Part shown: in pieces, positions 1 through 26,736 of the stretch
How positions within the stretch are numbered: the stretch's first letter is position 1
Layout: every line of letters begins with the position of its first letter
Source of the DNA: an uncultured virus (IMG/VR IMGVR_UViG_3300020049_007132)
Taxonomy: Duplodnaviria; Heunggongvirae; Uroviricota; Caudoviricetes; Crassvirales
Length of the DNA stretch: 64,000 bases
Virus record (IMG/VR): IMGVR_UViG_3300020049_007132
Strand: one strand, 5' to 3'
Notes under the pieces: generated by a model
Told to the model about the DNA's origin: nothing
The model's input: the letters and a program-made list of their open reading frames with translations, nothing else
Databases searched by the model: none
Program-made: the position numbers and the translations under genes

Positions 1-159
1 TTCTTGCAAGTCGCAACTATAAGCCTCAATTCCTTTTGCTCTTAATTCCTTTGTTATGGCTTGACTTTCCTCAAATCCGACAAGAAAAGGCTGCTTATAA
101 CAGCACCTACCAAAAAGAGGCTGTTCGGTGGTTAAATCAAGTGTATTGCTTCGTATCAT
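1..159 (-). CDS. Putative DNA (cytosine-5) methyltransferase, N-terminal part (runs off the window)
   Basis: Manual translation MIRSNTLDLTTEQPLFGRCCYKQPFLVGFEESQAITKELRAKGIEAYSCDLQE resembles the 'VLVACEESQ...FRAKGHEAYSCD' start of phage C5-MTase-like proteins. Its ATG (157-159) lies inside palindrome 1. Confidence 0.6.
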   Translation of the reverse strand, partial: MIRSNTLDLTTEQPLFGRCCYKQPFLVGFEESQAITKELRAKGIEAYSCDLQE

Positions 160-229
160 ATTTAGTGGTTGTTTGAAAATTTGTGCTTCGTAATCGCCTC
201 CTTCTGGTAGCTGCAAACCGTTAGTGGCA
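93..229. repeat. attC-like palindromic element 1
   Basis: GCTTATAAC(93-101)-AGCACCTACCAAAAAGAGGC ... GCCTCCTTCTGGTAGCTGC-AAACC-GTTAGTGGCA(220-229): imperfect inverted repeat with AAC/GTT ends. Confidence 0.75.
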
Positions 230-233
230 ATCG

Positions 234-506
234 TTAAGACAACTCCGAAGGTCTCCAACGACTTCCTCTTGTTAACCAATGTGGATTATCTCCCGACTTT
301 CCGAATGACTTTTGAAATTCAATCGGCTTTCCTGTGTTGCCTTCAAAGTAAGCATCTAACATATGTGGAGCTTCTTTGGTGTAAACCCAACCTTCTTCAT
401 CAATGATGTCTTTTACCTTATCCCAATATTGAGCGTAAGCCGATTGAAAACGACTGCCACTAACATCGGTTTGGCAAGATTGGGGGTTTTGTTCTGAATT
501 GTTCAT
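234..506 (-). CDS. Hypothetical protein (cassette-borne)
   Basis: 90-aa ORF. It starts inside palindrome 2 (N-terminus MNNSEQNPQSCQTDVSGS is encoded by the element) and stops just before palindrome 1. Confidence 0.7.
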   Translation of the reverse strand: MNNSEQNPQSCQTDVSGSRFQSAYAQYWDKVKDIIDEEGWVYTKEAPHMLDAYFEGNTGKPIEFQKSFGKSGDNPHWLTRGSRWRPSELS

Positions 507-592
507 TTGTATTTCTATTTAAAATTTGTACTAAAATTGAGCGATTGTGCTTTTAAGTCCCCAACCTCGCCAAGCCGAGAACCGTTACCTGC
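455..592. repeat. attC-like palindromic element 2
   Basis: TGCCACTAAC(455-464)-ATCGGTTTGGCAAGATTGGGG ... CCCCAACCTCGCCAAGCCGA-GAACC-GTTACCTGC(584-592). Confidence 0.75.
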
Positions 593-597
593 AAGTG

Positions 598-1356
598 CTA
601 CATTTCGTTTCCAAATAGAGTTCCTGCCTGTAAATCTTTTTCTTTTCTTTTTTCTCCCACCCTTTCAAAAGCAAGATTAAAATATTTTTCTTCAAGTTCA
701 ATCCCAATACATTTTCTATTAGTATTTAAACAAGCTATTGGTGTTGTTCCGCTTCCCATACAATTATCTAAAACAGTTTCATTTTCATTTGTGTATATTT
801 TAATTAGAGTTTCCATTAAAGATATTGGCTTTGCTGTCGGATGTGGGTGTCCTTTTCCACTTGGGTTTGCAACTTTTATTACACTCCTATTATATCCTGT
901 TTTAGTCGTTACATAGTCCTTACTATCCTTGCAATGTTTCAACTGCCTGACATCCGTTCCTCTTCCTGATTTTATGTAGCAATCTTCCAAAGTTAATTGA
1001 TTATATATTGGCGGTTTTTTGTAAAACACTAAAATATTTTCGTGAAATTTCAACGGATTAAGTTTCGCAAGTTGAAAATTACTCGCCTTTGTTTTTTCCC
1101 AAATCCATTCGTATCTAAATAATTTTGGATTACTCATTACCAAAGCACTTGTAAATGGTTGCGAAGCAGTTAAAACTATTGCACCATTTGGCTTTATAAT
1201 CCTTTCGTATTGCTCCCAAAGTTTATCAAATGGGATTATAGTATCCCATTTGCAATTTGTAGTCCCGTAAGGCAAATCGCATAAAATTAAATCAATGCTT
1301 TCGTTTTTTATTTGCTTCATTATTTCCAAGCAATCTCCGTTTCTTAAATCTATCAT
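598..1356 (-). CDS. Site-specific DNA methyltransferase (N6-adenine/N4-cytosine, beta class)
   Basis: Catalytic motif IV variant DLPY (DLILCDLPYG) near the N-terminus, HPTAKP, and SAM-binding VLDNCMGSGTT near the C-terminus. Confidence 0.92.
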   Translation of the reverse strand: MIDLRNGDCLEIMKQIKNESIDLILCDLPYGTTNCKWDTIIPFDKLWEQYERIIKPNGAIVLTASQPFTSALVMSNPKLFRYEWIWEKTKASNFQLAKLNPLKFHENILVFYKKPPIYNQLTLEDCYIKSGRGTDVRQLKHCKDSKDYVTTKTGYNRSVIKVANPSGKGHPHPTAKPISLMETLIKIYTNENETVLDNCMGSGTTPIACLNTNRKCIGIELEEKYFNLAFERVGEKRKEKDLQAGTLFGNEM

Positions 1357-1529
1357 ATTTTATCCATTTTAACAATACAAATTCTGTTTCCAAAAAACCA
1401 TTTACTCCAAGTAATTTTATATGCTCCAAACCACAATTTCCCAACATTATAATAGTCTGTATTTCTATTTTCCTTTAGTATGTATTTTATTAGTATCATT
1501 TTTAATTTTTTCAAAATTATTTTTGCCAT
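1353..1529 (-). CDS. Small hypothetical protein (58 aa)
   Basis: Manual translation MAKIILKKLKMILIKY...KMDKI. Its stop overlaps the MTase start (ATGA). Confidence 0.5.
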   Translation of the reverse strand: MAKIILKKLKMILIKYILKENRNTDYYNVGKLWFGAYKITWSKWFFGNRICIVKMDKI

Positions 1530-1596
1530 CGCTCAAAAAAAGAAAAGAAAAAGCGTTTGCGTTTCAATTCAAGTTCTATGGTAATAATCCGCACCA

Positions 1597-1731
1597 GCAG
1601 GTAACACGTGCTATACAAAAGAGGCGGTTCAGTTCTCCGCAGAAACATTTGTGGTTAAACAAACATTTGTACTCCGTATCAACTTTAGTGGTAATAATCG
1701 CCTCCTTCGTATAGCACCATACGTTATTTGT
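1597..1731. repeat. attC-like palindromic element 3
   Basis: GCAGGTAAC(1597-1605)-ACGTGCTATACAAAAGAGGCG ... CGCCTCCTTCGTATAGCAC-CATAC-GTTATTTG. The loop sequence is related to element 1. Confidence 0.75.
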
Positions 1732-1945
1732 TTAAGTCTGATAGTTGTTGTTGTAACCTTATCATCATCGCATCCGTTCTATTATTCAATCCCATACTTT
1801 CTGCTTCATCACTTTGAAATCGAACCTCTTTCAACACATCAATACAGTGCTGTAAGGTTATCTTTGCACACTCTTTAGATAATTGAGCATAGGAAAACCC
1901 ATTGGTCATTAATACATCACAATGTTTTTCTTCAAGTAAGGTCAT
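1724..1945 (-). CDS. Hypothetical protein
   Basis: 73-aa ORF in a tightly packed minus-strand run. Its TAA overlaps the end of element 3. Confidence 0.65.
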   Translation of the reverse strand: MTLLEEKHCDVLMTNGFSYAQLSKECAKITLQHCIDVLKEVRFQSDEAESMGLNNRTDAMMIRLQQQLSDLNK

Positions 1946-1948
1946 GGG

Positions 1949-2284
1949 TTATTTGTTTTGATTGTACCATTTTATAAATTCTACTATTGCAAGCCAAACT
2001 GATTCCTGCTTTGTTTTGCCTTCCTTATCAATAATGGTTTGGTTTGATGTAAGGTGCATCTTTTGAATTGTGCATTGCTTTCTCTTTATGATTATATATA
2101 AATCATGCTTCTGTTCAAGCAAATCAACAATATGAATTAGCTTTCCAAATAACTTTGCCTTGTGAAAGGATATGCTATCAATATTCTCGCCACCCTTTCT
2201 GTAAACATGAGGAGGAAAATGTGTAGCAAGAACCCATCCTCCTGCATCAGCAATAAGTCTGTTTCCTTCGATTATGTCTGTCAT
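1949..2284 (-). CDS. Hypothetical phage protein
   Basis: 111 aa with an 'EGNRLIA...AIVEFIKWYN' pattern of a kind common in Bacteroidota phage small ORFs. Confidence 0.7.
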   Translation of the reverse strand: MTDIIEGNRLIADAGGWVLATHFPPHVYRKGGENIDSISFHKAKLFGKLIHIVDLLEQKHDLYIIIKRKQCTIQKMHLTSNQTIIDKEGKTKQESVWLAIVEFIKWYNQNK

Positions 2285-2565
2285 GGTTTATACTCTTTAA
2301 TGAAAATGTCAAATAACTGATCTGTTGACTTAAACTTTTCTATGGTGCATGTATTTTCGCCGTTTTCTAAACTGTTATTTACCATAAGCATAAAATCTTC
2401 AAAATAATTTTGCTTTACCCAATTATGAAATGCAACACAAATAGGCTTAACATCAATAGTAATTGTTTGATATGGTAGTTGATTAGGGAATAGTTCGCCT
2501 ATCGTTTGTTTCGTTCCACTTGCCTCTGTCTTAATTACTTTTATTGGATTATCGTTGTGGTTCAT
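2281..2565 (-). CDS. Hypothetical protein
   Basis: 94 aa, ATGA-coupled on both sides. Confidence 0.65.
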   Translation of the reverse strand: MNHNDNPIKVIKTEASGTKQTIGELFPNQLPYQTITIDVKPICVAFHNWVKQNYFEDFMLMVNNSLENGENTCTIEKFKSTDQLFDIFIKEYKP

Positions 2566-2885
2566 TGGTCGATATTTTGTTGATGCTTTATAAATTTTAC
2601 TTCTGTTCTTTCTTCATTACACCATTCAAAATGCCCTTGTTCACCATAAAAAATCCAAGTATTCCCATCAACGCTGTTCTCAACTCTTATAATAACAGGG
2701 TCATAATTAAGCAGTTTGGGAAAAATGAGAGGGGACAGCCCTTCAGTTAATTCATTGAATCGCTCTGCATTTTTCTTTTGACGCTTGCTTCTACGCAGCG
2801 CAATACCCTTCCTGAAAAACACCAATCCACCTACAAAAAGAAATACAACAGCAAGGAAAGATAAAGGAAGGATTAAGACGTTCAT
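2562..2885 (-). CDS. Hypothetical membrane-anchored protein
   Basis: N-terminal hydrophobic helix followed by a basic stretch; ATGA coupling. Confidence 0.65.
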   Translation of the reverse strand: MNVLILPLSFLAVVFLFVGGLVFFRKGIALRRSKRQKKNAERFNELTEGLSPLIFPKLLNYDPVIIRVENSVDGNTWIFYGEQGHFEWCNEERTEVKFIKHQQNIDQ

Positions 2886-3085
2886 GGTTTTATTTTGATG
2901 TGTAATGTTTCGCCGTTCATAAATACTGATACATAGCCACTACTTTTTGCCTTTTTAGAACTTCCCGCAAATGAACTAAAGGTAACTGCACCGTTGGGGT
3001 TTAAGTTTTTCTTCAAAGCATCAAATTCGGATTGTGTCATTTCAACTATTCTTTCTTTCATAATTATTATTTTTTCACTTGTCAA
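2882..3085 (-). CDS. Hypothetical protein (start may be the ATG at 3061)
   Basis: Coupled stop/start at 2882-2885; TATATTTG -7 box on the minus strand at about 3083-3090. Confidence 0.55.
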   Translation of the reverse strand: MTSEKIIIMKERIVEMTQSEFDALKKNLNPNGAVTFSSFAGSSKKAKSSGYVSVFMNGETLHIKIKP

Positions 3086-3104
3086 ATATACAACCCCTTT
3101 ATGC

Positions 3105-3323
3105 TTATTTCCTAATTTTACACGTAAATTTTAGTGCAAGGAGTGATTGATTATGTGCTTCAATAGCCCTATACATTTTGAATGGCAATGATTCCTGAAT
3201 TTGGGTGGAAACAAAACAACCCTTTGCATCACCATTTAAAACTTCAATGGCTTCTGGAATATTTTTCACTTTTGTATAGATTGTTTTTTTGCCCTTAAAA
3301 TATCTTAGTGTGTACGGTTTCAT
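3105..3323 (-). CDS. Hypothetical protein
   Basis: 72-aa ORF flanked by a 23-bp direct repeat (3109-3131 and 3353-3375). Confidence 0.6.
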   Translation of the reverse strand: MKPYTLRYFKGKKTIYTKVKNIPEAIEVLNGDAKGCFVSTQIQESLPFKMYRAIEAHNQSLLALKFTCKIRK

Positions 3324-3352
3324 ACATCAAATATCCTATCAATAATTATAAA

Positions 3353-3425
3353 TTCCTAATTTTACACGTAAATTTATTTTTAAGTTGCTTTTTACACGTA
3401 AATATGTTTAAATTTACAGCGTAAA
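3353..3425. promoter_or_regulatory. Divergent promoter region with three TTTAC-N2/3-GTAAA palindromes
   Basis: TTTACACGTAAA at 3361-3372 and 3391-3402, TTTACAGCGTAAA at 3413-3425, between divergent gene runs. Confidence 0.7.
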
Positions 3426-3436
3426 TCAAAATAATC

Positions 3437-4516
3437 ATGAACAAAAAAGAAGAACTAAAGACAATCATTGATTCCTTAAATAACCTTATGGGTAAGATTG
3501 ATTCGGTGGATGAACCGAAACCTTCAACTGATTTCACCACAGGAAATAATGCGTTCAAACATTTACAGAAGCCTAAGTACCCCGAAGGAATATTGTCGTT
3601 TAAAACTTGTTACGATCAAATAGTTTCTTTTAAAAATCAAGTTGGTAACTATCAAAATTGGTGTAATGGACACTTGGGAAAGGAAAGAGAGAATATTGTT
3701 CCATCAACTATCCATTCAGTAAAGAACAGCAAAGGAGAAGTGTTTACTATTGGGGATTTGACACAATACGGAAACATTACAGGATTCACGTTAGGAGCAG
3801 AAGATGTGTATGCTTCATTTGAAGGTGGTTATACTGTTAGTTCGCCTGTTGATTGGCTTGTCAAGAAAGAGCCTCAACCTTCATGGAAAGATCAGATTGT
3901 TGCGTATAGGTGGAATGGTGAAGTGTATTATAGAAATGTAGCTACCTTTTCTTTTAGTCGATATGATACTTCAATAGGTGCTCGTACACTAAAAGAAGAA
4001 GAACAGACTGAAATCTTTAGAGTGCGTAACAAAGCAGGTGTTAAATTTAGTGTTGGAGATTATGCTCATTATGAGAATGGTTCAGAAGTAAAGATTAATT
4101 CATTCTTTATTAGTAACGGGCTTGATTCTTCATTACATGAAATAATAATAGCCATGCACTCTAATGGAAGCTGTGGAATTGATTTATTAACCAAAGCCGA
4201 ACCTAAGAAAGAACCAAAGCCGTTATTCAAAACAGAGGATGGGTTTGATGTGTTTGAAGGTGATGGATATTTCGCTGTTAGAAACAGTGATTTTCATATC
4301 TGTGAATACGCTGCACTATTCGCAAAGTATCTTGTTGATGAAGGGTATTACACCCGCTTCAAACACAAATCCAACGCCGAAAAGTATGTGGCTGAAAATA
4401 AAAAAAGTATCAGCTATAAAGAGTTGGAAGATTATGTAGTGCTAACAACACCTTTTTTAAAGTTGCCTGAACAAGTATCACTTCGGAATATTTTAAATCA
4501 TTTTAAACCACAATAA
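3437..4516 (+). CDS. Hypothetical phage protein with internal repeats
   Basis: 359 aa with repeated motifs IHSVKNSKGEVFTIGD / IFRVRNKAGVKFSVGD / LFKTEDGFDVFEGD. Confidence 0.8.
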   Translation: MNKKEELKTIIDSLNNLMGKIDSVDEPKPSTDFTTGNNAFKHLQKPKYPEGILSFKTCYDQIVSFKNQVGNYQNWCNGHLGKERENIVPSTIHSVKNSKGEVFTIGDLTQYGNITGFTLGAEDVYASFEGGYTVSSPVDWLVKKEPQPSWKDQIVAYRWNGEVYYRNVATFSFSRYDTSIGARTLKEEEQTEIFRVRNKAGVKFSVGDYAHYENGSEVKINSFFISNGLDSSLHEIIIAMHSNGSCGIDLLTKAEPKKEPKPLFKTEDGFDVFEGDGYFAVRNSDFHICEYAALFAKYLVDEGYYTRFKHKSNAEKYVAENKKSISYKELEDYVVLTTPFLKLPEQVSLRNILNHFKPQ

Positions 4517-4518
4517 TC

Positions 4519-5112
4519 ATGACAACACAACAAAAGATAAGTGCCATTTTAGGACAGGAAAATTACAAAGTGTCTGATGGAAAAGTCCTACGCTATGACC
4601 AATTAGATGATAAATTTAAACCTGTAATAGTTTCAGGAAATAGGATTCCTTTAGTAAAGACAGGACAAATTGTTGAAATCTTCGCATGGGATGATGTTAA
4701 AAGTGTTATTGATGGGATGGGTGGTGCTGCGTGGACACTTGATGGTAGAGAATTATCCGAAAAAATAATCGGAACAGTTGATGTGCCGGACTTTCCAATT
4801 CATGTAAAAGACAAATTAGATGTGATTGTAAAAATCAATAAAGCAAAGAATGTGAAAGAAGTAAAAAAAGTAATCAATAAGACAAAAAAGCAAATCATGG
4901 CAAAAAAGAAAAAGGCAGAAACAAAAACAAAGTCCAACCGTAAACCATCTGTGAATTTAACGGATGAACATATCGCTATCATAAAAAAAGAACACAACAA
5001 AGGAACTTCCAAAATGGCAATAGCAAGATTGCTTTCAGAGAAAACAGGAATGGACGTTACAAGGTTTATTGTTATGTATCACGTTAAAAAGATTGATGCT
5101 AAGAAAAAGTAA
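4519..5112 (+). CDS. Putative DNA-binding protein (C-terminal HTH)
   Basis: Lys-rich linker followed by LTDEHIAIIKKEHNKGTSKMAIARLLS, an HTH-like segment. Confidence 0.55.
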   Translation: MTTQQKISAILGQENYKVSDGKVLRYDQLDDKFKPVIVSGNRIPLVKTGQIVEIFAWDDVKSVIDGMGGAAWTLDGRELSEKIIGTVDVPDFPIHVKDKLDVIVKINKAKNVKEVKKVINKTKKQIMAKKKKAETKTKSNRKPSVNLTDEHIAIIKKEHNKGTSKMAIARLLSEKTGMDVTRFIVMYHVKKIDAKKK

Positions 5113-5138
5113 TTTTCACACATTAAACCACTAACCCA

Positions 5139-5300
5139 ATGAACTCTTTAATCCTTATTGAAGATCGTTTAGAGGCTGTTGTAAAAGCATTTGTATGTGA
5201 AGAAGTACAACCTATAATAGATGATAGAAAAGATGCCTTAGAAGGTGTTTGTGTGCATGATGAAGGGTGTTGTTTTGCTGCGTTGAACGTTTTAAAATAA
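5139..5300 (+). CDS. Small hypothetical protein (53 aa)
   Basis: Manual translation MNSLILIEDRLEAVVKAF...ALNVLK; fills the gap between neighbouring ORFs. Confidence 0.5.
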   Translation: MNSLILIEDRLEAVVKAFVCEEVQPIIDDRKDALEGVCVHDEGCCFAALNVLK

Positions 5301-5307
5301 ATTAATC

Positions 5308-5547
5308 ATGAAAAACATTATGACGAATATGAAAAAGTATTGGATTAAAAATCTAAGTAAATTACGTCAATTATTTACCTTAGAATCGTTACCGTTTTTC
5401 TTCACTCGAAAGACAATGATAGAATTTTGCGAATGGAGTAAGCAAGCAGAATGGCGGGATGGAAAACGAAAAGGAGCATTTATAAAAAATGAATGGAAAT
5501 CCTACATAACTCTTTTTTTGAATGACAGACGTGCAAACAAAAAATAA
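5308..5547 (+). CDS. Hypothetical protein
   Basis: 79 aa, flanked by a 26-bp direct repeat (5290-5315 and 5555-5580). Confidence 0.55.
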   Translation: MKNIMTNMKKYWIKNLSKLRQLFTLESLPFFFTRKTMIEFCEWSKQAEWRDGKRKGAFIKNEWKSYITLFLNDRRANKK

Positions 5548-5572
5548 ATTAACTTTTTAAAACAAATTAATC

Positions 5573-5827
5573 ATGAAAAAAAGAATCACTATTACCATTG
5601 ACACTGACGAAATCAAGTCAACAGAAATCAAGTCAACATCATTAATGCTACCTTTTACCGAACGTGCAATGAGAGTATTAGATGACTATCTAAATGCAAG
5701 TGGTAAAGAAGCAAGGCGAATAGCATCAGTAAAAGCAAAAGAACTTTACAAAGAATACTACGGAATTGATTACGTCAATCGTAACGAACGGAATTATATA
5801 CTAAGCAGATTTGCAGAAACCAACTAA
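5573..5827 (+). CDS. Hypothetical protein
   Basis: 84 aa; contains an exact 15-bp tandem duplication at 5609-5638 (EIKST x2). Confidence 0.65.
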   Translation: MKKRITITIDTDEIKSTEIKSTSLMLPFTERAMRVLDDYLNASGKEARRIASVKAKELYKEYYGIDYVNRNERNYILSRFAETN

Positions 5828-5896
5828 ACACTTTGAATTAATGGTTGTGTGGTGGTATATTTGATTTAAGATTTTGATTTGTTGTTTGAAAATACT

Positions 5897-5959
5897 TTGG
5901 CTGCGGACATAACTTTCTACTGACTTGTCCTTAATTGAAACTAAGGGTTAAGCAGCCAA
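5897..5959 (+). ncRNA. Candidate small structured RNA A
   Basis: Closing stem TTGGCTGC/GCAGCCAA, internal hairpins, followed by TGTTCTTTTT. Confidence 0.4.
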
Positions 5960-5975
5960 TGTTCTTTTTAAGATT

Positions 5976-6110
5976 AGGCAGTGATAGTAAAGGAGTGTCA
6001 CTTGCAAAAGATTTCTACCCGCTAAGTAGTGTTTTATGCCAGAAATGGTACGGGGGATTAATTGATACCGGAATAGAAATATTCCCAATGTTTTGCACTA
6101 TCACTTGCCT
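5976..6110 (+). ncRNA. Candidate multi-stem RNA B
   Basis: Closing stem AGGCAGTGATAGT/ACTATCACTTGCCT; inner TGCAAAA/TTTTGCA; GGAATA-GAAA-TATTCC GNRA hairpin; U-rich tail. Confidence 0.5.
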
Positions 6111-6176
6111 TTCTTTTGTGCTTTGAGTTTTTAAAAGTTTTCTGTGTAGCCATTCTCACCCATCACTTTAATAAAG

Positions 6177-6339
6177 CATTGGTAGTACGGCGGACAGTGA
6201 GCCGATGGAGAACATGGTCGCTCTGTGTTCGAGTTTTCGTTTAGGGGTCGTAACCCTTGTCGTTGAACAGTTGCAATATTTTCGCAAATCGTTAGGCGAA
6301 TGAAGCAATACTGCAAGTCAAACCTTGCTGCTACCAATG
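6177..6339 (+). ncRNA. Candidate tRNA-like RNA C with a large interior
   Basis: 11-bp closing stem CATTGGTAGTA/TGCTACCAATG, with a T-arm-like GCAAG-TCAAAC-CTTGC just before the 3' strand; U-rich tail. Confidence 0.5.
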
Positions 6340-6366
6340 TTCTTTTGTTCTTTGATTTTTTAATTT

Positions 6367-6491
6367 GTTGGAGTGGCGGAATTGGCAGACGCTGAAATAA
6401 AAACCGGAAAGTAACTTTCTCGACGGAGAAAATAGGATAAGGGCGTAGTGGACGAAACTACGTGATGAAGGTTCAAATCCTTCCTCCAACA
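6367..6491 (+). ncRNA. tRNA-Leu-like RNA with a non-canonical, expanded anticodon region
   Basis: Acceptor GTTGGAG/CTCCAAC+A; Leu-type D arm GCGGAATTGGCAGACGC; variable arm CGTAGT/ACTACG; T arm GAAGG-TTCAAAT-CCTTC. It is 125 nt long with no canonical anticodon stem-loop. Confidence 0.7.
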
Positions 6492-6625
6492 CATAAATGG
6501 CGGTTCATGATAGGTGGAGTGTCTTAGTAAGGTTGACATCCGAAAAGCACGTTGAAACTGAAAGTAAGTACCTACGGTGAAGCAATTCACTTTAAGCCGA
6601 ACTCAATCAAGGATGGTCTGACTTA

Positions 6626-6651
6626 GCCTTTCAAAGTAAAGGCACTTTTTT
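6626..6651 (+). terminator. Intrinsic terminator
   Basis: GCCTTT-caaagt-AAAGGC followed by ac and T6. Confidence 0.55.
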
Positions 6652-6683
6652 GTTAATCATTTCACTTTAAAATAAATCAAGTC

Positions 6684-6866
6684 ATGCTAAAGTTTCAGTT
6701 GTACATTGACAAAAAGAAGGAGTACCGTTGGAGGTTATTATCATCAAACGGAAAAATTGTTGCTGACTGTGCCGAAGGGTACAAGCAACGTGCTTCATGT
6801 GTTAAAGCGGTAAACAAAATAATTGGTAAGATTGTATTCGACAAATTTAAAATTGTTGACGCTTAG
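6684..6866 (+). CDS. YegP/DUF1508-family protein
   Basis: FQLYIDKKKEYRWRLLSSNGKIVADCAEGYKQRASC matches the family pattern. Confidence 0.85.
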   Translation: MLKFQLYIDKKKEYRWRLLSSNGKIVADCAEGYKQRASCVKAVNKIIGKIVFDKFKIVDA

Positions 6867-6888
6867 TACGATGCTGTGTGGGTTCAGC

Positions 6889-6936
6889 ACTGCCACGAAG
6901 TAATGTTTTTTTGAGTTATTAGTGGCAGTTTTTTTT
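6889..6936 (+). terminator. Intrinsic terminator
   Basis: ACTGCCAC ... GTGGCAGT followed by a T-run. Confidence 0.6.
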
Positions 6937-7072
6937 CATCTTCAAACCACCTATCCCATGAAATTCTTAAACAAATACGGCTGTGAAATTCTTGCATGGA
7001 TTATATCAGCAATAGCTATTTACTTTATTTTCTATGGAATGATTAATCTTTTCACTCTTTTAAAATCCTACA

Positions 7073-7285
7073 TTGACTAAAATGATACCACTTGAAAGCT
7101 ACATAAAGAAGCATACTAAGACACCTGTTCTATTTTCACCTGAATTAAAGAAAGTGATAGTACAGTATTGTGGTGAAGTATTTGATGAAGGTAAACTTGC
7201 AGCAATGGCAAGCTATCAGAATCATTTAGGATTTAATCATGAACAGATTGAAGAAAAAAAACAATCAACACTAAAAACAATATGA
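7073..7285 (+). CDS. Hypothetical protein (likely start ATG 7082)
   Basis: ATGA-coupled to the next gene. Confidence 0.55.
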   Translation: MTKMIPLESYIKKHTKTPVLFSPELKKVIVQYCGEVFDEGKLAAMASYQNHLGFNHEQIEEKKQSTLKTI

Positions 7286-7806
7286 CAGCCACACAACCCA
7301 CCACAGTAAGAGATCGCAGATTTGATGGAAGCATAAGAAAGAACGGACTATCAAAGTTGATGCGGGATATATTCGTGCTACCTGAAAAGAAAAAGAATAT
7401 GGAAGAAGAAAAGATAGACTTAGAGAACGGATATGTCAACATAGCCAAGATAATCGAACAGACAGCCTATGAGTTAGGTGTAGAGGTCGAAGGAATCAAG
7501 GGAAGAAGCAGGGCAAGGAAGTTTGTTACAGCACGTTCAATAATCTGTTTTATAGCACGATACACCACCACCTTATCCTTAAAGCAGATAGGCACAGAGA
7601 TTTCGATGTACTCCCCCAAAGATCATTCAAGCGTTATACATGCCACCCAAAAGGCATTTGACTTCATCCATAATCCTGACACAGAATTTATAGTACTCTT
7701 TGAAAGAGTAAGGCAAAGACTTGATGCACATTATAATATAACCTTCGATTTAGAGGACTTAACACACATGCCATCATGGTATAAAAATATGCTCAAGGAC
7801 AAGTAG
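7282..7806 (+). CDS. DnaA C-terminal (domain IV) HTH protein
   Basis: IKGRSRARKFVTARSIICFIARYTTTLSLKQIG...KDHSSVIHA matches DnaA domain IV; no AAA+ domain. Confidence 0.85.
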   Translation: MTATQPTTVRDRRFDGSIRKNGLSKLMRDIFVLPEKKKNMEEEKIDLENGYVNIAKIIEQTAYELGVEVEGIKGRSRARKFVTARSIICFIARYTTTLSLKQIGTEISMYSPKDHSSVIHATQKAFDFIHNPDTEFIVLFERVRQRLDAHYNITFDLEDLTHMPSWYKNMLKDK

Positions 7807-7862
7807 TTTTTACACTGTAAATTACTAATCCATTTTTACGCTGTAAGTAGTTTCTATATCCT

Positions 7863-8075
7863 TTATAGATTGTTATTTTGTAGTAGTTGCTTTCTTTTTT
7901 CTTTTGCTCTATTATAGTTTCTGTCAGGTGGTTGACATATGAAGCATGAGCATGGTTTTCCCTGATCTTTATATCCATGATAATTACTATTAGGGTCTGA
8001 TTCTTTTAATCCAAGATTCTTTAACCTTCGCTGATATTTCAGTTGCCTAAGTTCGTTACGTCTTGCCTTGTTCAT
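7863..8075 (-). CDS. Basic hypothetical protein with CxCxxC motif
   Basis: 70 aa containing GKPCSCFIC. Confidence 0.6.
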   Translation of the reverse strand: MNKARRNELRQLKYQRRLKNLGLKESDPNSNYHGYKDQGKPCSCFICQPPDRNYNRAKEKRKQLLQNNNL

Positions 8076-14413: not shown

Positions 14414-14845
14414 TTATTTAGGACATTTAATACTTTTTAAAAACGATATAATCATTTCGATTGCATCTAAACTTTGAAATCCATTTAGCACATTTATTGT
14501 TTTATTTTCAACGCCAAGAAATATAAAGCGGCATTCTCCAAAATTTAATATAAAAAACATTCTGTCAGCTTGCCCTCTAATTTTTAATGCTGATATGGGA
14601 TGATAAATACTTCTGTCTGTATTTTCAATAACAAAATGACAATCAGAACAATAAGTAACAAGATTTTTAAGAGGTTCGTCATGAGGAAATGCCGTTGTAT
14701 ATTTAAAATGATGGACGTGAAGCATGGTTTCTGTATCACCACATAATTTGCATTTGAACTTATCCCTTTTTAATACCTCTAACCGCTTCTTTTGCCATTT
14801 AGGGTGGGCAAGTTTCTTCTGATAAGGAGTTGTTTCTTTATCCAT
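14414..14845 (-). CDS. HNH-like endonuclease
   Basis: WQKKRLEVLKRDKFKCKLC...LHVHH...LVTYCSDCH. Confidence 0.8.
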   Translation of the reverse strand: MDKETTPYQKKLAHPKWQKKRLEVLKRDKFKCKLCGDTETMLHVHHFKYTTAFPHDEPLKNLVTYCSDCHFVIENTDRSIYHPISALKIRGQADRMFFILNFGECRFIFLGVENKTINVLNGFQSLDAIEMIISFLKSIKCPK

Positions 14846-17794: not shown

Positions 17795-18850
17795 ATGGCA
17801 GAAGAAACAGAAGATTTAAAATCAGCACAGGTAGAAAGTATTCAGGCAGAAGAAGTTAATGCCATGTACTATGATGCAGGATTGATTGAGCCGAACTATA
17901 AGCTAAGACGCTTGAACACAATTCGGGGACGTGTGTATTTCCGTTTCGCAGATGAAGTAAATTTGCTTGAACCAATATTTTATGGCGGGACAACTAATAT
18001 GACGTCCGAAATTCCTAAGAGTGAACAACTCATTGATTGGTATGCAAGCAAAGGTTCTGAATGGGCTAAGAGAAACTATTTTCAGCGTATGCTTTTTGGG
18101 TCGTTAGAACATTCGATGCTTGCTGATTATGCCATATCTAAAAAATTAAACCTTGATGAAATTCCTGAACGTGTACGCAATTATTTCTTTACGCAAAATT
18201 TCTATTGCACCGAAAAGGAGTTGACGGATATGGCGACAGAGGCACAAATGGATTTTATTGGACTTTCACGTTGGATGCTTGATTATAAAGTACAATTAAT
18301 TGCCGTTGAAATACCTGTATTTAGTGATGTGGATTTTATGGCTACACAAATTGACCTCGTATGCCTTATTGAAGAAGATGAAGAATTTGAACGTGAAGGG
18401 TACAAGACAAAAGGTAAGCGTAAAGTTCCTGTTCTTGCATTGATAAATTACAAGTCAGGCAAAAGTGGTTTTTTTGACACGCACAGATTTCAGCTTGAAT
18501 CAGAAAAAAATATGTTCCTTGAGTGCTTCCCCGATTTCGCTAAATACAAAATCCGCACCTACAACTTGTCAGGAAAAAAATTCAGATCATTAAAGTGGGA
18601 CGGCAGAAGTCGCCCATATTTATTTTCAGACCAGACGGACAAGATTAACATTGACAGGTACAACGCTTACTTAGCATTAGCAAAAATAACAAGGGATGAA
18701 AGATTAGGCAAACCAATTCGTATCATCAAAGGAGAATTAAATTTCGGTGGCGACCCTTTACAATGTGTCGAAGAAAAAACATTGAAACAAATTGTTGAAC
18801 AAAATATGTGGCAGTCCTTTGTAAAAACATCAGCAAGCATACCACAATGA
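17795..18850 (+). CDS. PD-(D/E)XK exonuclease-like recombination protein
   Basis: GSLEH, IAVEIPVF...ATQIDLV...INYKSGK...FQL motif order; start moved to ATG 17795. Confidence 0.7.
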   Translation: MAEETEDLKSAQVESIQAEEVNAMYYDAGLIEPNYKLRRLNTIRGRVYFRFADEVNLLEPIFYGGTTNMTSEIPKSEQLIDWYASKGSEWAKRNYFQRMLFGSLEHSMLADYAISKKLNLDEIPERVRNYFFTQNFYCTEKELTDMATEAQMDFIGLSRWMLDYKVQLIAVEIPVFSDVDFMATQIDLVCLIEEDEEFEREGYKTKGKRKVPVLALINYKSGKSGFFDTHRFQLESEKNMFLECFPDFAKYKIRTYNLSGKKFRSLKWDGRSRPYLFSDQTDKINIDRYNAYLALAKITRDERLGKPIRIIKGELNFGGDPLQCVEEKTLKQIVEQNMWQSFVKTSASIPQ

Positions 18851-19308
18851 TTACCAAAAAGCAACCTATCTGTTCAGTCTGTAAACAACCATGTTCATTA
18901 TACAGGGTTGAAAGGGATGATATGAAAAGGAAGATTTACATTTGTTCAAAGCACCCCAAAGCATCCGATAAAAAAGAACAAACCGAACATGCAGCAAAAC
19001 TTGAAAAGTTCTATCAGGAAATACACAAAAAGTTTAACGGCATCTGTCAGGAAACAGGAAAACAATTAACCTACTCAAACAAACATTGCGCTCACATTTT
19101 ACCTAAAAGCAAGTATGACTATTTTGAATTTGATTTAAGAAATGCGATATTAGTGTCTTGGAACATTCATTCTATAATTGATAAAGGAAGTCCTGAACAA
19201 CGTAAACAATTAAAAGTATGGAAACGTATTCAGGATATACGAAGTAAATTGCTTGATGAAGTAGGGTTGACGTTTGATGAAAAACATTGGGAAATAGTGA
19301 CTTTTTAA
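18847..19308 (+). CDS. HNH/NinG-like nuclease
   Basis: N-terminal CxxC; CQETG...CAHILPKS...RNAILV...H. Confidence 0.6.
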   Translation: MITKKQPICSVCKQPCSLYRVERDDMKRKIYICSKHPKASDKKEQTEHAAKLEKFYQEIHKKFNGICQETGKQLTYSNKHCAHILPKSKYDYFEFDLRNAILVSWNIHSIIDKGSPEQRKQLKVWKRIQDIRSKLLDEVGLTFDEKHWEIVTF

Positions 19309-19309
19309 A

Positions 19310-19627
19310 ATGACAAGAGAAACAGAATTAAGAATCAAAAGAGAAAATAATCTTGTTGAAAAATGTCTGTTAATAGATAAAAAACAAGAATATAGCATAA
19401 GGCGTATAGGTAGCCAATTAAGAATACGAATTTACGACAGAGATAATAATAAGTGTCTTAGATGTGGCAGCAAAGAAAATTTAACCATAGATCATATTGT
19501 TCCTGTGTCAATGGGTGGAGTTAAAGAAAAATTTAATTTACAAACGCTATGTAAACATTGTAATCAATGGAAAGGCAGCAGGATAATAGATTTTCGCCAT
19601 AAACCAACAAAGAAAAGGACTGAATAA
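19310..19627 (+). CDS. HNH endonuclease
   Basis: RDNNKCLRCG...LTIDHIVPVSMGG...NLQTLCKHCNQWKG. Confidence 0.92.
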   Translation: MTRETELRIKRENNLVEKCLLIDKKQEYSIRRIGSQLRIRIYDRDNNKCLRCGSKENLTIDHIVPVSMGGVKEKFNLQTLCKHCNQWKGSRIIDFRHKPTKKRTE

Positions 19628-24981: not shown

Positions 24982-25199
24982 CTTTAGATGAACTGAAAAA
25001 AAAATACACATACCCTGATTACATATTAAAATGTAGTATAGGAAATGAAGTTGCGTCTTTCTTTATAGAAAGACAAAGTGATGGATACCCTATAATACAT
25101 ACATTAAAAAGTTCAAAAGGAAATGTTTTGACACAGCAGCAAAAAAATGATACCATAAAAGGTTTTATAGAAAGCGTTTTAAAACACATGCCATTATGA
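24978..25199 (+). CDS. Hypothetical protein
   Basis: 73 aa, ATGA-coupled. Confidence 0.6.
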   Translation: MTLDELKKKYTYPDYILKCSIGNEVASFFIERQSDGYPIIHTLKSSKGNVLTQQQKNDTIKGFIESVLKHMPL

Positions 25200-25891
25200 T
25201 GTTTCCTAAAGTTTTGGTAGGCTCACCAATTAATGAAAGAAAGGCATATTGCATGGATGACTATTTAACCAACTGTTACAACCTTACATACCCTAACAAA
25301 AAATTTTACTTTGTAGATAATTCAGAAAACAGAGATTGGCATGTTGACAATATAATAGCAAAAGGATTCGATTGTGACTATGTTAATCCTAAAGGACGTA
25401 CAAATCAACAATATATCTGTATATCGCAAAACGCAATAAGGCAAAAAGCTATTGTAGAAAACTTTGATTTTTTAATGTTTATAGAGTGTGACATTTTCCC
25501 TAAAAAGAACATCATAGAGGAAATGGTTGCCTATAATGAAAAAGTAGTTGCTTGCAATTATTTCATTAGGCAACGTGAAAATTCACATTTGCTAAAGACT
25601 GAAATAGAAAAAACAACATTTGCAAATTACACTAACAGAAACATAAATGATGCAGAAGGGTTTTTGGATTACGTGGGGAACAAAAAAAGAAGTTCTATGT
25701 TTGGGTTTGGTTGTTGCCTTATAAGGCGAGATGTTTTTACAAAAATCAATTTTCATGTAAATAATTATGATAGGTCACACGCTGATACTCCATTCTATTT
25801 TGATCTTTGGGAAGAAGGAATAGAACCTATATGCCATCCTGAAATAGTTAGACACATGAATAGTTCATGGAAAAAAGTTTTAGACACATAA
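25196..25891 (+). CDS. Glycosyltransferase (GT-A fold, GT2-like)
   Basis: YFVDNS, FLMFIECD (DxD-like), GFGCCLIRRDVF, HAD. Confidence 0.85.
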   Translation: MMFPKVLVGSPINERKAYCMDDYLTNCYNLTYPNKKFYFVDNSENRDWHVDNIIAKGFDCDYVNPKGRTNQQYICISQNAIRQKAIVENFDFLMFIECDIFPKKNIIEEMVAYNEKVVACNYFIRQRENSHLLKTEIEKTTFANYTNRNINDAEGFLDYVGNKKRSSMFGFGCCLIRRDVFTKINFHVNNYDRSHADTPFYFDLWEEGIEPICHPEIVRHMNSSWKKVLDT

Positions 25892-25902
25892 AATAAAAGA
25901 TC

Positions 25903-26736
25903 ATGGGTAGCCTTATCTGCATGGCTGTACATAGTACAGAAAAAAATGAAAGATTAAAATATACCAATGAGTGCTTACAGTCACTTATGGAAACTGTTGA
26001 TTTTTCGATTCATAAATTAGTCATTAGCGATAATAATTCATCAATAGAAACCAAAGATGCTATAGGGTGTTTTCAGTATGAATTTGGCAAACATTTCCCA
26101 CATGAAAACCTAACTGTGTTTTTTAACAAGTCAAATCTTGGTACAAGTGGAGCAATCAACAAAGCAATAAGATTAAGAGAATCAGGGCAACATATAATCA
26201 AGACGGATGATGATGTTAAGTGGCATTCAAAAGGATGGGTAGAAGAAATGGAGGATGCTATTCAAAGACAACCCTTAATAGGTGTGTGTAACTTAAAAAG
26301 GAATGATTTCGGTGAAAGTCCATTTGCTGAAAATCCTGATTACAGGACAAAACTATTTATGTTGCCACATCAAAAACACCAATCATGGATTGTAGTGGAA
26401 GAACTTAAAGGAAGCGGGATGGGTACGTGTCAAATGATAAATTCGGCATTGCTTGATAAGATTGGATATTATAAACAGATACCTCCTTATGGATGGGATG
26501 ACCATTTGTTAGGTGTTAGGTGTACGATTGCGGGATTTAAAAATATCTTTCTCCCATACATACGAATATCTCACTTAGATACAGGTGTTACAGAGTTCGG
26601 TATCAAAACTGAATTTATTGAGTGGAAACAAAAAGTTGCTGGTGAAGTTTCAGGCGAAGTGGCGAAGTTGATAGATGGCTATACTAACGGCACAATACCC
26701 ATTTATTTTGAACCAAATTTTGACGAATTAATATGA
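25903..26736 (+). CDS. Glycosyltransferase family 2
   Basis: VISDNNSS, NLGTSGAIN, IIKTDDDV, DKIGY...YGWDD. Confidence 0.88.
   Translation: MGSLICMAVHSTEKNERLKYTNECLQSLMETVDFSIHKLVISDNNSSIETKDAIGCFQYEFGKHFPHENLTVFFNKSNLGTSGAINKAIRLRESGQHIIKTDDDVKWHSKGWVEEMEDAIQRQPLIGVCNLKRNDFGESPFAENPDYRTKLFMLPHQKHQSWIVVEELKGSGMGTCQMINSALLDKIGYYKQIPPYGWDDHLLGVRCTIAGFKNIFLPYIRISHLDTGVTEFGIKTEFIEWKQKVAGEVSGEVAKLIDGYTNGTIPIYFEPNFDELI

What the first reader, a model, noticed from the sequence alone, without database searches (positions are those of the whole stretch)
93..1731. Integron-like gene-cassette array (attC-like palindromes) in a phage genome
Seen: three 135-138 bp imperfect palindromes (93-229, 455-592, 1597-1731). 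Each is bounded by AAC and GTT, with a ~20-bp stem and a similar asymmetric bulge (1-2 nt vs ~5 nt) next to the GTT. The outer ends do not match within an element but across each intervening unit. GTTAGTGGCA (220-229) is the exact reverse complement of TGCCACTAAC (455-464), and GTTACCTGC (584-592) of GCAGGTAAC (1597-1605). Established: this is how integron cassettes look after G/TT recombination, since each unit reconstitutes a matched R''/R' pair when circularised. Inference: the phage carries excisable or shufflable cassettes. No integrase is in the window, so the recombinase would lie elsewhere in the phage or be supplied by the host. The array runs off the left edge.
Basis: partly seen in the sequence, partly recalled or inferred. 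Interest (0 to 1): 0.85.

Follow-up and report, generated by a model that had tools for sequence, protein, structure and literature searches.

The report
Phage integron-like methyltransferase cassette array
The three palindromes are real recombination-type hairpin sites that separate swappable gene cassettes, mostly DNA methyltransferases, and they belong to a widespread, largely undescribed integron-like system of phages that has its own Xer-like recombinase.

Summary
Three hairpin sites lie at 92-229, 455-593 and 1596-1732. Each has TAAC, 5-6 nt, a 19-20 bp stem, a ~74 nt loop, 1-2 nt, then GTTA, read on the minus (coding) strand. The end complementarity across units is real.

A covariance model built from the three sites finds about 100 co-oriented copies in arrays in other viral contigs. 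It also finds them in cultured Flavobacterium phages. Stems covary. One G.T pair is present in 98 of 99 copies.

Similarity between copies breaks exactly at AAC or GTT. Near-identical cultured phages differ by whole hairpin-plus-gene units, with both ends in TAAC. Two metagenome contigs carry the window's own E1 cassette behind different neighbours, and the break falls at window 220/221.

A XerA-like tyrosine recombinase family lies directly behind such arrays. All 118 elements in 79 recombinase loci are upstream of it, and a conserved attI-like junction lies between. The recombinase lacks the IntI-specific insert. Published work shows IntI1 did not recombine one family member.

Verdict: integron-like in mechanism and layout, but not a canonical integron. 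It is a new variant of a known kind. Catalysis and cassette circles are inferred, not shown.

The parts
92..229 (-). Hairpin site E1 (core AAC99-101 to GTT220-222 on +). Its loop holds the ATG of the gene that runs off the left edge.
   Evidence: 136.8 bits. The same element with 1-6 differences is in contigs L110 and L111.
455..593 (-). Hairpin site E2 (core AAC462-464 to GTT584-586 on +). The stem sequence differs from E1 and E3, but pairing is kept by compensatory changes. The loop holds the ATG of ORF90.
   Evidence: 145 bits.
1596..1732 (-). Hairpin site E3 (core AAC1603-1605 to GTT1723-1725 on +). This is the first site in the coding direction. Its stem type recurs with identical stem letters in at least 11 other contigs.
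   Evidence: (I2).
220..235 (.). Left end of the ORF90 cassette. It is the inverted repeat partner of 449-464.
   Evidence: I7: 16 nt, 94%. The similarity break with L110/L111 falls at 220/221.
449..464 (.). Right end of the ORF90 gene module. It is the inverted repeat partner of 220-235.
   Evidence: I7.
584..598 (.). Left end of the methyltransferase cassette. It is the inverted repeat partner of 1591-1605.
   Evidence: I10: 15 nt, 87%.
1591..1605 (.). Right end of the methyltransferase gene module. It is the inverted repeat partner of 584-598.
   Evidence: I10.
221..584 (-). Inferred cassette 1: hairpin E2 plus ORF90 (234-506), cut at G|TT on + (AA|C on the coding strand).
   Evidence: The boundaries are inferred from the unit that is gained or lost in cultured relatives and from the break at 220/221. 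ORF90 has no Pfam or PHROG match.
585..1723 (-). Inferred cassette 2: hairpin E3, ORF43 (1517-1648), ORF58 (1353-1529) and an N6/N4 DNA methyltransferase (598-1356).
   Evidence: PF01555, E 4.7e-28. The ORFs overlap head to tail. The methyltransferase ORF matches one in Polaribacter phage P12002L at 74.5% nt identity, and a P12002L methyltransferase with a similar N-terminus lies behind a short-loop member of the same family.
1..220 (-). Cassette 0, cut by the window edge: hairpin E1 plus the first 54 codons (1-162) of another DNA methyltransferase.
   Evidence: phrog_757 DNA methyltransferase, E 1.4e-4, residues 24-54. The gene continues about 480 nt in L110/L111 and ends at GTTATAAGC, the complement of E1's own outer end.
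1724..1945 (-). ORF73, the last gene before the array in the coding direction. Its TAA stop codon is part of E3's TAAC core.

Best explanation
The three elements are recombination sites of an integron-like gene-cassette system carried by phages of Flavobacteriia-type hosts.

Anatomy of a site. Read on the coding strand, each site is: TGC-NNN-TAAC, a 5-6 nt spacer, a 19-20 bp stem, a variable loop (about 10-90 nt), the other half of the stem, a 1-2 nt spacer, then GTTA-NNN-GC. The stem has one nearly fixed G.T pair, a second frequent G.T pair and a frequent C.A mismatch.

The cassette. One cassette is a hairpin plus the gene or genes that follow it, up to the next TAA|C. The two outer ends of a cassette are complementary. 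A circularised cassette would therefore rebuild a fully paired outer stem, as in integron attC sites.

Inferred mechanism. The coding strand folds as single-stranded DNA. A tyrosine recombinase exchanges strands at AA|C, which is G|TT on the other strand. Cassettes are then excised, inserted and reassorted.

The candidate enzyme. It is a XerA-like recombinase family. In many related phage contigs its gene lies directly after the last cassette, behind a conserved attI-like junction (cassette end TAAC followed by TA-N-TATAT-G/A-TA). Arrays in phages without this gene would be served in trans. These include the cultured Muminvirus phages, P12002L and possibly this window.

Cargo and likely use. 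The cargo is dominated by orphan DNA methyltransferases. The array probably works as a reshufflable anti-restriction repertoire.

A second role for the hairpin. In long-loop sites the loop also carries the start codon of the downstream gene. The site therefore doubles as the gene's 5' leader.

Shown: structure, covariation, the end rule, breakpoints, cassette indels and the recombinase linkage. Inferred: folding as ssDNA, catalysis by this recombinase, circular intermediates, action in trans and the anti-restriction role.
For: 1. Conserved structure. Across 99 elements, 94.2% of 2364 cells are paired. 633 cells are changed on both sides, against 201 in shuffles. The covariation score is 0.689 against 0.156, with 0 of 500 shuffles as high. 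The AAC/GTT core is kept in 98 of 98 sequences with letters. G.U stands at one stem position in 98 of 99.

2. End rule. 26 of 38 adjacent pairs have 7 or more of 10 complementary positions, against 130 of 2256 other pairs and 4 of 48 own pairs.

3. Sharp mosaic breakpoints. Identical hairpins are followed by unrelated flanks from GTT(A) on. Identical flanks are followed by unrelated hairpins from AAC-G on.

4. Polarity.
- Of 12 pairs that share the upstream flank, 11 have a different hairpin.
- Of 19 pairs that share the downstream flank, 13 share the hairpin.
- The hairpin therefore travels with the downstream gene.

5. Indels in cultured phages.
- mumin6-1 and mumin6-3 are 99.9% identical except for a 506 bp unit, hairpin plus gp008. 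Both ends lie in TAACGTT.
- filifjonk9-1 differs from mumin6-1 by two more units that end at TAAC|.

6. The window's own cassette. L110, L111 and the window share E1 plus the methyltransferase. They carry three different sequences from window 221 onward.

7. Recombinase linkage.
- In G002 a 298 aa tyrosine recombinase starts about 30 nt after the last cassette end.
- In 79 further loci with relatives of it, 118 of 118 elements lie upstream and on the same strand. None lie downstream, although 406 kb were searched downstream against 286 kb upstream.
- Among loci at 34% identity or more with at least 700 nt upstream, 43 of 56 hold elements. Among more distant recombinases, 0 of 7 do.

8. attI-like junction. 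It is present in 48 of 65 such loci and in 1 of 10 distant ones. The background is 0.09 per window.

9. Cargo. 17 of 42 scanned ORFs of the G002 array are DNA methyltransferases of four Pfam families.

10. Published field data. Muminvirus methyltransferase content varies and tracks plating efficiency (PMC7077304, passages).
Against: - No recombinase of this kind is in the window (61 ORFs scanned). None is in four complete cultured phage genomes with arrays, nor in complete contigs G003, G005 and G006. Yet indels occur among those cultured phages.
- Breakpoints occur at both ends of the hairpin, not only at one as in canonical integrons. 5-6 of 19 shared-downstream pairs have a different hairpin.
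- A family member, P12002L_attC1, was the one site of six that IntI1 did not recombine (PMC9892861, section 3.4).
- 12 of 38 adjacent pairs do not obey the end rule. 13 of 56 recombinase loci show no element, though several of these still show the junction motif.
- The counts of pairs are not independent, because paralogues and one terminal repeat are included.
- The covariance model was built from the window's own three sites and its alignments are fitted to it.
- The recombinase could be an ordinary lysogeny integrase that sits next to a moron region by synteny.
Confidence: 0.7

Rival explanations
1. The hairpins are RNA elements of a polycistronic early transcript, acting as processing, terminator or translation-start structures. 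Cassette shuffling would be a by-product of homologous or microhomology recombination, or of replication slippage, between repeated hairpins. This is what has been proposed for the promoter-stem-loop (PeSL) modules of T4-type phages (recalled, paper not seen).
For: - All elements are co-oriented with the genes.
- The coding strand folds better and carries conserved G.U pairs.
- Long loops hold the ATG of the next gene behind an A-rich stretch, and the 3' arm is translated.
- Indels occur in phages that have no recombinase, and the junctions share 7-8 nt of identity.
Against: - It does not explain why the variable triplet next to GTTA matches the far end of the next gene rather than its own hairpin.
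- It does not explain why breakpoints sit at the 4-7 nt core and not within the 20 bp conserved stems, where homology is longest.
- It does not explain why a dedicated recombinase family with a conserved junction sits behind the arrays in 118 of 118 cases.
- Outside two fixed columns, G.T pairs (46) are not commoner than A.C (60).
- Short-loop members cannot hold a start codon.
- The two roles are not exclusive.
Confidence: 0.14
2. It is a canonical bacterial integron fragment (a CALIN) picked up from a host chromosome. It would be served by a host IntI, with ordinary attC sites.
For: - It has the AAC/GTT cores, the end rule and an attC-like size range.
- Qi et al. 2023 list a CALIN with two methyltransferases in Polaribacter phage P12002L. 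One of its two predicted sites is a family member.
- More distant relatives of the recombinase in Flavobacterium are named 'tyrosine recombinase/integron integrase' by NCBI.
Against: - The linked recombinase lacks about 43 residues where IntI4 has its extra domain, and aligns end to end with XerA.
- The family member was predicted by HattCI only and was not recombined by IntI1.
- The cultured Flavobacterium phages with at least 15 sites are not among the 21 phages reported from a screen of 10,705 phage genomes with the standard tools. I could not check whether they were in that set.
- The only hits in 185,579 species genomes were four short MAG contigs made of array.
- The genes run opposite to the usual cassette orientation.
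Confidence: 0.08
3. The elements are miniature inverted-repeat transposable elements (the stems being terminal inverted repeats). Alternatively, the gene modules are small transposons with inverted ends, moved by a transposase encoded elsewhere.
For: - The hairpin is a repeated unit with inverted arms, and the same hairpin appears in many contexts.
- The gene modules are flanked by inverted repeats.
Against: - The unit gained or lost is hairpin plus gene, never the hairpin alone.
- Stems differ between copies while pairing is kept, and fixed G.T and C.A positions are retained.
- There are no target-site duplications beyond the shared core.
- No transposase turned up in the ORFs scanned in the arrays (42 of 44 G002 ORFs of 80 aa or more; for the window).
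- The elements have strict co-orientation and regular one-per-gene spacing.
Confidence: 0.03

Closest known systems
Integrons: attC sites, attI, IntI (including long VCR-type attC of chromosomal integrons)
   Same: - Imperfect palindromic sites of about 60-140 nt bounded by AAC...GTT.
- The outer ends match across each cassette.
- The crossover is at G|TT.
- One strand is marked by fixed non-Watson-Crick positions.
- The terminal loop varies in length.
- A tyrosine recombinase gene faces away from the array, next to a distinct attI-like junction.
- Arrays reach at least 37 cassettes.
   Different: - The recombinase is XerA-like and lacks the IntI-specific insert.
- The stem is long and almost perfect, with a 5-6 vs 1-2 nt spacer asymmetry instead of the R/L boxes with extrahelical bases. 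That comparison is recalled, not tested.
- Genes run opposite to the usual cassette direction, and the site acts as their 5' leader.
- Mosaic breakpoints occur at both ends of the site.
- The system is carried by lytic-type phage genomes.
- IntI1 failed on one member (PMC9892861).
CALINs in phages (Qi et al. 2023, Front Microbiol, PMC9892861)
   Same: - Clusters of attC-like sites without an integrase in virulent phages.
- Methyltransferase cargo.
- Polaribacter phage P12002L is shared between that study and this family. Its attC1 is L019:5640-5700.
   Different: - That study saw two sites in one phage of this group, called them divergent, and did not report several things found here: the family, its arrays of tens of cassettes, the cultured Flavobacterium phages, the end rule, the precise indels, the linked Xer-like recombinase and the attI-like junction.
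- Its attC2 is the terminal junction after the last cassette end.
Xer recombinases and dif-type modules (pdif modules of Acinetobacter plasmids; recalled)
   Same: The recombinase is closest to XerA/XerC/XerD. Gene modules are flanked by inverted short sites.
   Different: - The sites here are 60-140 nt hairpins, not 28 bp duplex sites.
- All sites have one orientation.
- The recombinase is encoded at the array end.
- I did not look for dif-like 11-6-11 cores.
PeSL modules of T4-type phages (Arbiol et al. 2010; recalled, not read here)
   Same: Small accessory genes in a hyperplastic phage region are each bracketed by a repeated stem-loop signal and are thought to shuffle as modules.
   Different: - PeSLs are promoter plus small stem-loop and are thought to use homologous recombination.
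- Here there is a fixed AAC/GTT core, cross-unit complementarity and a linked tyrosine recombinase.

Membership tests
Integron (IntI + attI + attC array) | Integrase of the IntI clade, carrying the extra helical insert in the catalytic domain | tested here: not met
   None is in the window. The array-linked recombinase of relatives aligns with IntI4 (2a3v) in two pieces, 80-178/81-179 and 204-275/248-319. That leaves 25 residues opposite 68. It aligns continuously with XerA 4a8e. All NCBIfam hits are below cut-off, the best being NF040815 at 206 bits against a cut-off of 220. The insert as an IntI hallmark comes from a passage of 10.1101/542381.
Integron (IntI + attI + attC array) | attC: imperfect palindrome with AAC...GTT cores that folds as a hairpin | tested here: met
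   The core is kept in 98 of 98 sequences with letters, and 94.2% of cells are paired with strong covariation.
Integron (IntI + attI + attC array) | Full R box consensus (RYYYAAC / GTTRRRY), L boxes and extrahelical bases | tested here: inconclusive
   Only (T)AAC/GTT(A) plus a flanking GC is conserved, and the triplet between is free. Fixed G.T and C.A positions exist instead of bulged bases. The consensus itself is recalled.
Integron (IntI + attI + attC array) | Sites score with the standard attC covariance model (IntegronFinder / HattCI+Infernal) | not testable with these tools
   The model is not on hand. Published: the family member P12002L_attC1 was found by HattCI only (figure legend). 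Rfam has no match.
Integron (IntI + attI + attC array) | The outer end of each site is complementary to the start of its own cassette (end rule) | tested here: met
   Both pairs in the window obey it. 26 of 38 adjacent pairs in the first set of loci searched do, against 130 of 2256 controls.
Integron (IntI + attI + attC array) | Cassette gain or loss with the crossover at G|TT | tested here: met
   Three indels between cultured phages end in the core. The window's E1 cassette breaks at 220/221 against L110 and L111. This is comparative evidence only; no recombination was observed.
Integron (IntI + attI + attC array) | Recombinase gene next to the first cassette, with an attI site between | tested here: met
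   This holds for relatives, not the window. 118 of 118 elements are upstream of the recombinase. The junction motif is in 48 of 65 loci.
Integron (IntI + attI + attC array) | Recombination by an integron integrase in vivo | not tested
   Published assay: IntI1 did not recombine P12002L_attC1, whereas the terminal junction site attC2 recombined on one strand (PMC9892861, section 3.4).
CALIN (cluster of attC sites lacking an integrase) | Two or more attC sites close together with no integrase nearby | tested here: inconclusive
   Three sites lie within 1.7 kb and no PF00589 hit is among the 61 window ORFs scanned. However, the array is cut by the window edge on the side where relatives carry the recombinase, and the sites are not shown to be attC by the standard model.
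Xer/dif modules | 28 bp duplex site with two 11 bp arms and a 6 bp spacer | not tested
   I did not search for such cores. Only the recombinase's Xer likeness was tested.

The most novel reading that the evidence does not exclude
This is a separate, phage-borne class of integron. It has a XerA-like integrase without the IntI insert, its own attI-type junction, and long-stem hairpin sites whose loop doubles as the translation start of the cassette gene. Flavobacteriia phages would use it to collect and reshuffle anti-restriction DNA methyltransferases and other small early genes. Cassettes would pass between co-infecting phages, and arrays without an integrase would be served in trans.
Probability: 0.55. 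Interest if true: 0.9.

Novelty: new variant of a known kind. Interest (0 to 1): 0.8.

Why it matters
- Integrons are regarded as bacterial, and lately archaeal, platforms defined by IntI. A parallel platform with a different recombinase branch, living in virulent-type phage genomes, would widen that concept.
- These arrays can take up to about a quarter of a 40 kb genome.
- It would give a concrete mechanism for the long-noted hyperplastic accessory regions of phages.
- It also bears on the phage-host arms race. The cargo is mostly orphan DNA methyltransferases. In cultured Muminvirus phages, methyltransferase content already tracks plating efficiency on different hosts (PMC7077304).
- The system is directly testable, because cultured phage-host pairs carry it.
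- For annotation, standard integron tools seem to miss it.

Tried and rejected
- Rfam scan of 1-4000 at E<=10 gave only two chance-level hits outside the elements. No tRNA was found.
- No near relative of the region exists in the phage collection beyond the methyltransferase gene.
- An exact 34-mer of E1 was not found in viral contigs.
- The 359 aa neighbour (3437-4516) has no relatives in viral contigs.
- The nearest held record, G001, does not cover window 1-8000 and has no element.
- Folding energy alone and a generic hairpin scan are weak discriminators.
- Reads: four runs of Logan contigs were laid on 1-3000 and gave no circle junction and no contig bridging a deleted cassette. Contigs are short and break near the element borders, with loose ends at about 453-461, 589-594, 1616 and 1709. 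I do not count this as evidence either way.
- The genome contigs pattern scan gave only four short MAG contigs made of array, so no host chromosomal array was found.
- Contig G007, with a 79% identical recombinase, shows no element because it ends 95 nt upstream of the gene.
- I considered and rejected CRISPR, tRNA-like elements, introns and IS200/IS605 ends. There are no repeat-spacer units, no RNA family match, no split gene and no TnpA/TnpB.
- The idea that many G.T pairs mark the folding strand did not hold. The asymmetry sits in two columns only.
Full report
**1. What is in the window**

The genes of 1..3323 all lie on the minus strand. Three elements sit among them at 92-229 (E1), 455-593 (E2) and 1596-1732 (E3).

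Read on the minus strand, each element is built as follows:
- TAAC
- 5-6 nt
- a 19-20 bp stem
- a loop of about 74 nt
- the other half of the stem
- 1-2 nt
- GTTA

E1 and E3 are about 74% alike. E2 has a different stem sequence but the same pairing. Among the three copies, 11 of 24 pairs change on both sides and 94.4% of cells pair. No shuffle out of 500 reaches this.

- 220-235 against 449-464 (16 nt, 94%)
- 584-598 against 1591-1605 (15 nt, 87%)

Folding energy alone is unremarkable. z is -1.1 to -4.2 on the minus strand and worse on the plus strand. Long-loop hairpins as such are not rare. The case therefore rests on comparison with other sequences.

The genes between the sites are:
- a fragment of a DNA methyltransferase that starts in the loop of E1 (phrog_757)
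- a 90 aa ORF that starts in the loop of E2
- behind E3, two small overlapping ORFs and an N6/N4 DNA methyltransferase (PF01555)

No tyrosine recombinase is among the 61 window ORFs scanned.

**2. The element is a family that forms arrays**

A gapped pattern from E1/E3 found 11 loci in viral contigs. A covariance model built from the three window sites then found many more copies. They are always co-oriented and mostly spaced 200-2,400 nt apart:
- 37 copies over 37.7 kb of a 169.7 kb contig (G002)
- 19 at the two ends of a 39.8 kb contig rated 98% complete (G003). If the ends are joined, the array is about 29% of that genome.
- 6 at the ends of a 61.9 kb contig with terminal repeats (G006)

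The window has only its three copies.

At least 15 copies lie in the cultured Flavobacterium phage vB_FspS_filifjonk9-1. Short-loop copies lie in Polaribacter phage P12002L.

Over 99 aligned elements:
- 94.2% of cells pair.
- 633 cells are changed on both sides, against about 201 in shuffles.
- The AAC/GTT core is invariant.
- One stem position is G.U in 98 of 99 copies, and a second in 57 of 99.
- A third position is unpaired in 48 of 99.

C.A accounts for 53 of the non-standard cells over the whole stem. Outside the two G.U columns, G.T is not commoner than A.C (46 against 60). The strand mark is therefore a few fixed positions, not general wobble pairing.

Two caveats apply. The model comes from the window's own sites, and its alignments are fitted to it.

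**3. Evidence that cassettes move, and where they break**

It holds in 26 of 38 adjacent pairs (7 or more of 10 positions), against 130 of 2256 non-adjacent pairs. The conserved frame is GTTA-NNN-GC on one side and GC-NNN-TAAC on the other. Only the triplet and a few outer bases are specific.

*Breakpoints.* Pairs of elements were compared around their cores:
- Identical hairpins (up to 34 of 34 nt) are followed by unrelated sequence from GTT(A) on.
- Identical upstream flanks (44 of 44 nt) run through AAC-G into unrelated hairpins.

*Polarity.*
- Of 12 pairs with the same upstream flank, 11 have another hairpin.
- Of 19 pairs with the same downstream flank, 13 share the hairpin.
- The hairpin therefore goes mainly with the gene that follows it.
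- These pairs include paralogues and one terminal repeat, so the counts are not independent.

*Cultured phages.*
- Flavobacterium phages mumin6-1 and mumin6-3 are 99.9% identical over 13 kb except for 506 bp.
- The extra unit is one hairpin plus gene gp008. Both ends lie in a shared TAACGTT.
- filifjonk9-1 has two further units relative to mumin6-1 (412 bp and about 1.58 kb). Each is hairpin plus gene(s) and each ends at TAAC|.

*The window's own cassette.* Two metagenome contigs carry E1 and its methyltransferase with 1-6 differences. Beyond window position 220/221 (G|TT) the window, L110 and L111 have three different sequences. In L111 the far end of the gene reads as the exact complement of E1's outer end.

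**4. A linked recombinase and an attI-like junction**

G002 encodes one tyrosine recombinase. It starts about 30 nt after the last cassette end, and that cassette end is complementary to the last hairpin's outer end.

The recombinase aligns end to end with XerA (4a8e, 155 bits). It aligns with IntI4 only in two pieces, which leave out about 43 residues where IntI has its extra domain. NCBIfam places it below every cut-off. The nearest model is 'XerA / integron integrase'.

Relatives are numerous, about 268 aa long, and often sit on contigs of phage size.

In 79 further viral loci that encode relatives, the model finds 118 elements:
- All 118 are upstream of the recombinase and on its strand. 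None are downstream, although more sequence was searched downstream.
- 43 of 56 loci at 34% identity or more, with at least 700 nt upstream, hold elements.
- 0 of 7 loci with more distant recombinases do.
- Many close relatives sit within 100 nt of a contig end, as expected if assemblies break in the arrays.

Between the last cassette end and the gene lies a conserved junction: TAAC followed by TA-N-TATAT-G/A-TA. It is found in 48 of 65 loci, against 1 of 10 distant ones, with a background of 0.09 per window.

Turned to the integron convention, the window's plus strand is the 'top' strand. The layout is then:
- a recombinase pointing away from the array
- an attI-like site
- cassettes with the hairpin at their far end
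- the better-folding coding strand as the 'bottom' strand, cut at AA|C

The difference is that the genes run against the array direction.

Complete genomes with arrays but without such a gene exist: G003, G005 and G006, and four cultured phages. So the enzyme must often act in trans, or another mechanism exists.

**5. Cargo**

Of 42 scanned ORFs of 80 aa or more in the G002 array (44 exist; two span locus joins), 17 are DNA methyltransferases:
- 14 N6_N4
- 1 D12 class
- 1 MT-A70
- 1 Dam

The window's two or three cassettes fit this picture.

Nilsson et al. 2020 (PMC7077304, passages only) report 15 methyltransferase genes variably present in 35 Muminvirus genomes, and a link to plating efficiency. 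The text has no word beginning with 'hairpin' or 'palindrom', and its four uses of 'repeat' concern laboratory procedure.

**6. Comparison with what is known**

Qi et al. 2023 (PMC9892861) is the closest prior work. I read the abstract, section 3.4, figure legends and supplement part 1. They screened 10,705 phage genomes with IntegronFinder and HattCI+Infernal and reported 17 CALINs. One, in Polaribacter phage P12002L, has two methyltransferases.

- Its attC1 is a member of this family (L019:5640-5700). It was predicted by HattCI only, and it was the one site of six that IntI1 failed to recombine.
- Its attC2 is the terminal junction after the last cassette end.
- The Flavobacterium phages are not in their lists.

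The idea of attC clusters in phages is therefore known. I did not find the following in print: the family itself, its scale, the end rule, the precise indels, the recombinase family and the attI-like junction. The searches were made, and they cover only the held library.

**7. Verdict**

The system works like an integron but fails a defining membership test, the IntI insert. Its sites are non-canonical. I therefore file it as a new variant of a known kind.

Not shown:
- that the sites fold as single-stranded DNA
- that this recombinase catalyses the exchange
- that circles form
- who acts in phages without the gene

An RNA role of the hairpins as a leader holding the start codon is likely to be additional rather than alternative.

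Noticed in passing
window 1723-1733 and 1948-1958 (minus strand): The exact 11-mer that forms E3's outer end also stands just before the ATG of ORF73. ORF73 is therefore flanked by a direct repeat ending in TAAC, although no hairpin precedes it. There are two exact copies in 64 kb. This may be a hairpin-less unit or an old insertion point.
   Followed up: partly
window 3105-3436: The divergent region between the minus-strand and plus-strand gene blocks holds a 23-nt exact repeat (3109-3131 and 3353-3375) and a third 20-nt copy at 3390-3409 (D1 and D7). These are likely operator or promoter repeats of the early region.
   Followed up: no
window loops of E1-E3; G002 (L012-L014): In long-loop sites the first ATG of the downstream ORF lies in the loop. 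The 3' arm plus GTTA is then translated, giving recurrent N-termini such as ..ITEQPFCQTRV-SGS.. on unrelated methyltransferases. Short-loop sites are followed by genes that start 30-70 nt later. Some cassettes begin GTT-ATG, with their own start right at the core.
   Followed up: partly
L110:771-1071: One metagenome contig carries the window's E1 cassette next to G+C-rich sequence unlike the phage. The junction lacks the TTA after the G. It could be an assembly chimera or a cassette at a secondary site in another genome.
   Followed up: no
window 1616-1708, run X7: A contig has E3's stems but 14 other letters in place of the 91-nt loop (table 5c). This is a short-loop variant of the same site type in the same kind of sample.
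   Followed up: no
L112 (Polaribacter phage Leef_1, MT732473) 4792-7813: This cultured phage has an annotated integrase 37% identical to the array-linked recombinase. Three weak model matches lie upstream on the same strand (22-24 bits). A cassette-end-like GCTAAC followed by ..CTATATAC lies about 60 nt before the gene. It is a possible laboratory system for the whole platform.
   Followed up: partly
window 25196-29510: A block holds two family-2 glycosyltransferases, an Anp1-like hit and a class-I methyltransferase. It could serve DNA or surface modification. Most structural genes from 30 kb on have no Pfam match at all.
   Followed up: no
window 14414-14845, 18808-19308, 19310-19627: Three HNH-type endonuclease ORFs lie in the replication and early region.
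   Followed up: no
L018/L020 around 1600-1655 (Muminvirus array end): In phages without the recombinase, the last cassette end TAAC is followed by TACAATATTACATG. This resembles the attI-like junction found next to the recombinase elsewhere. It may be a relic of a lost platform.
   Followed up: no
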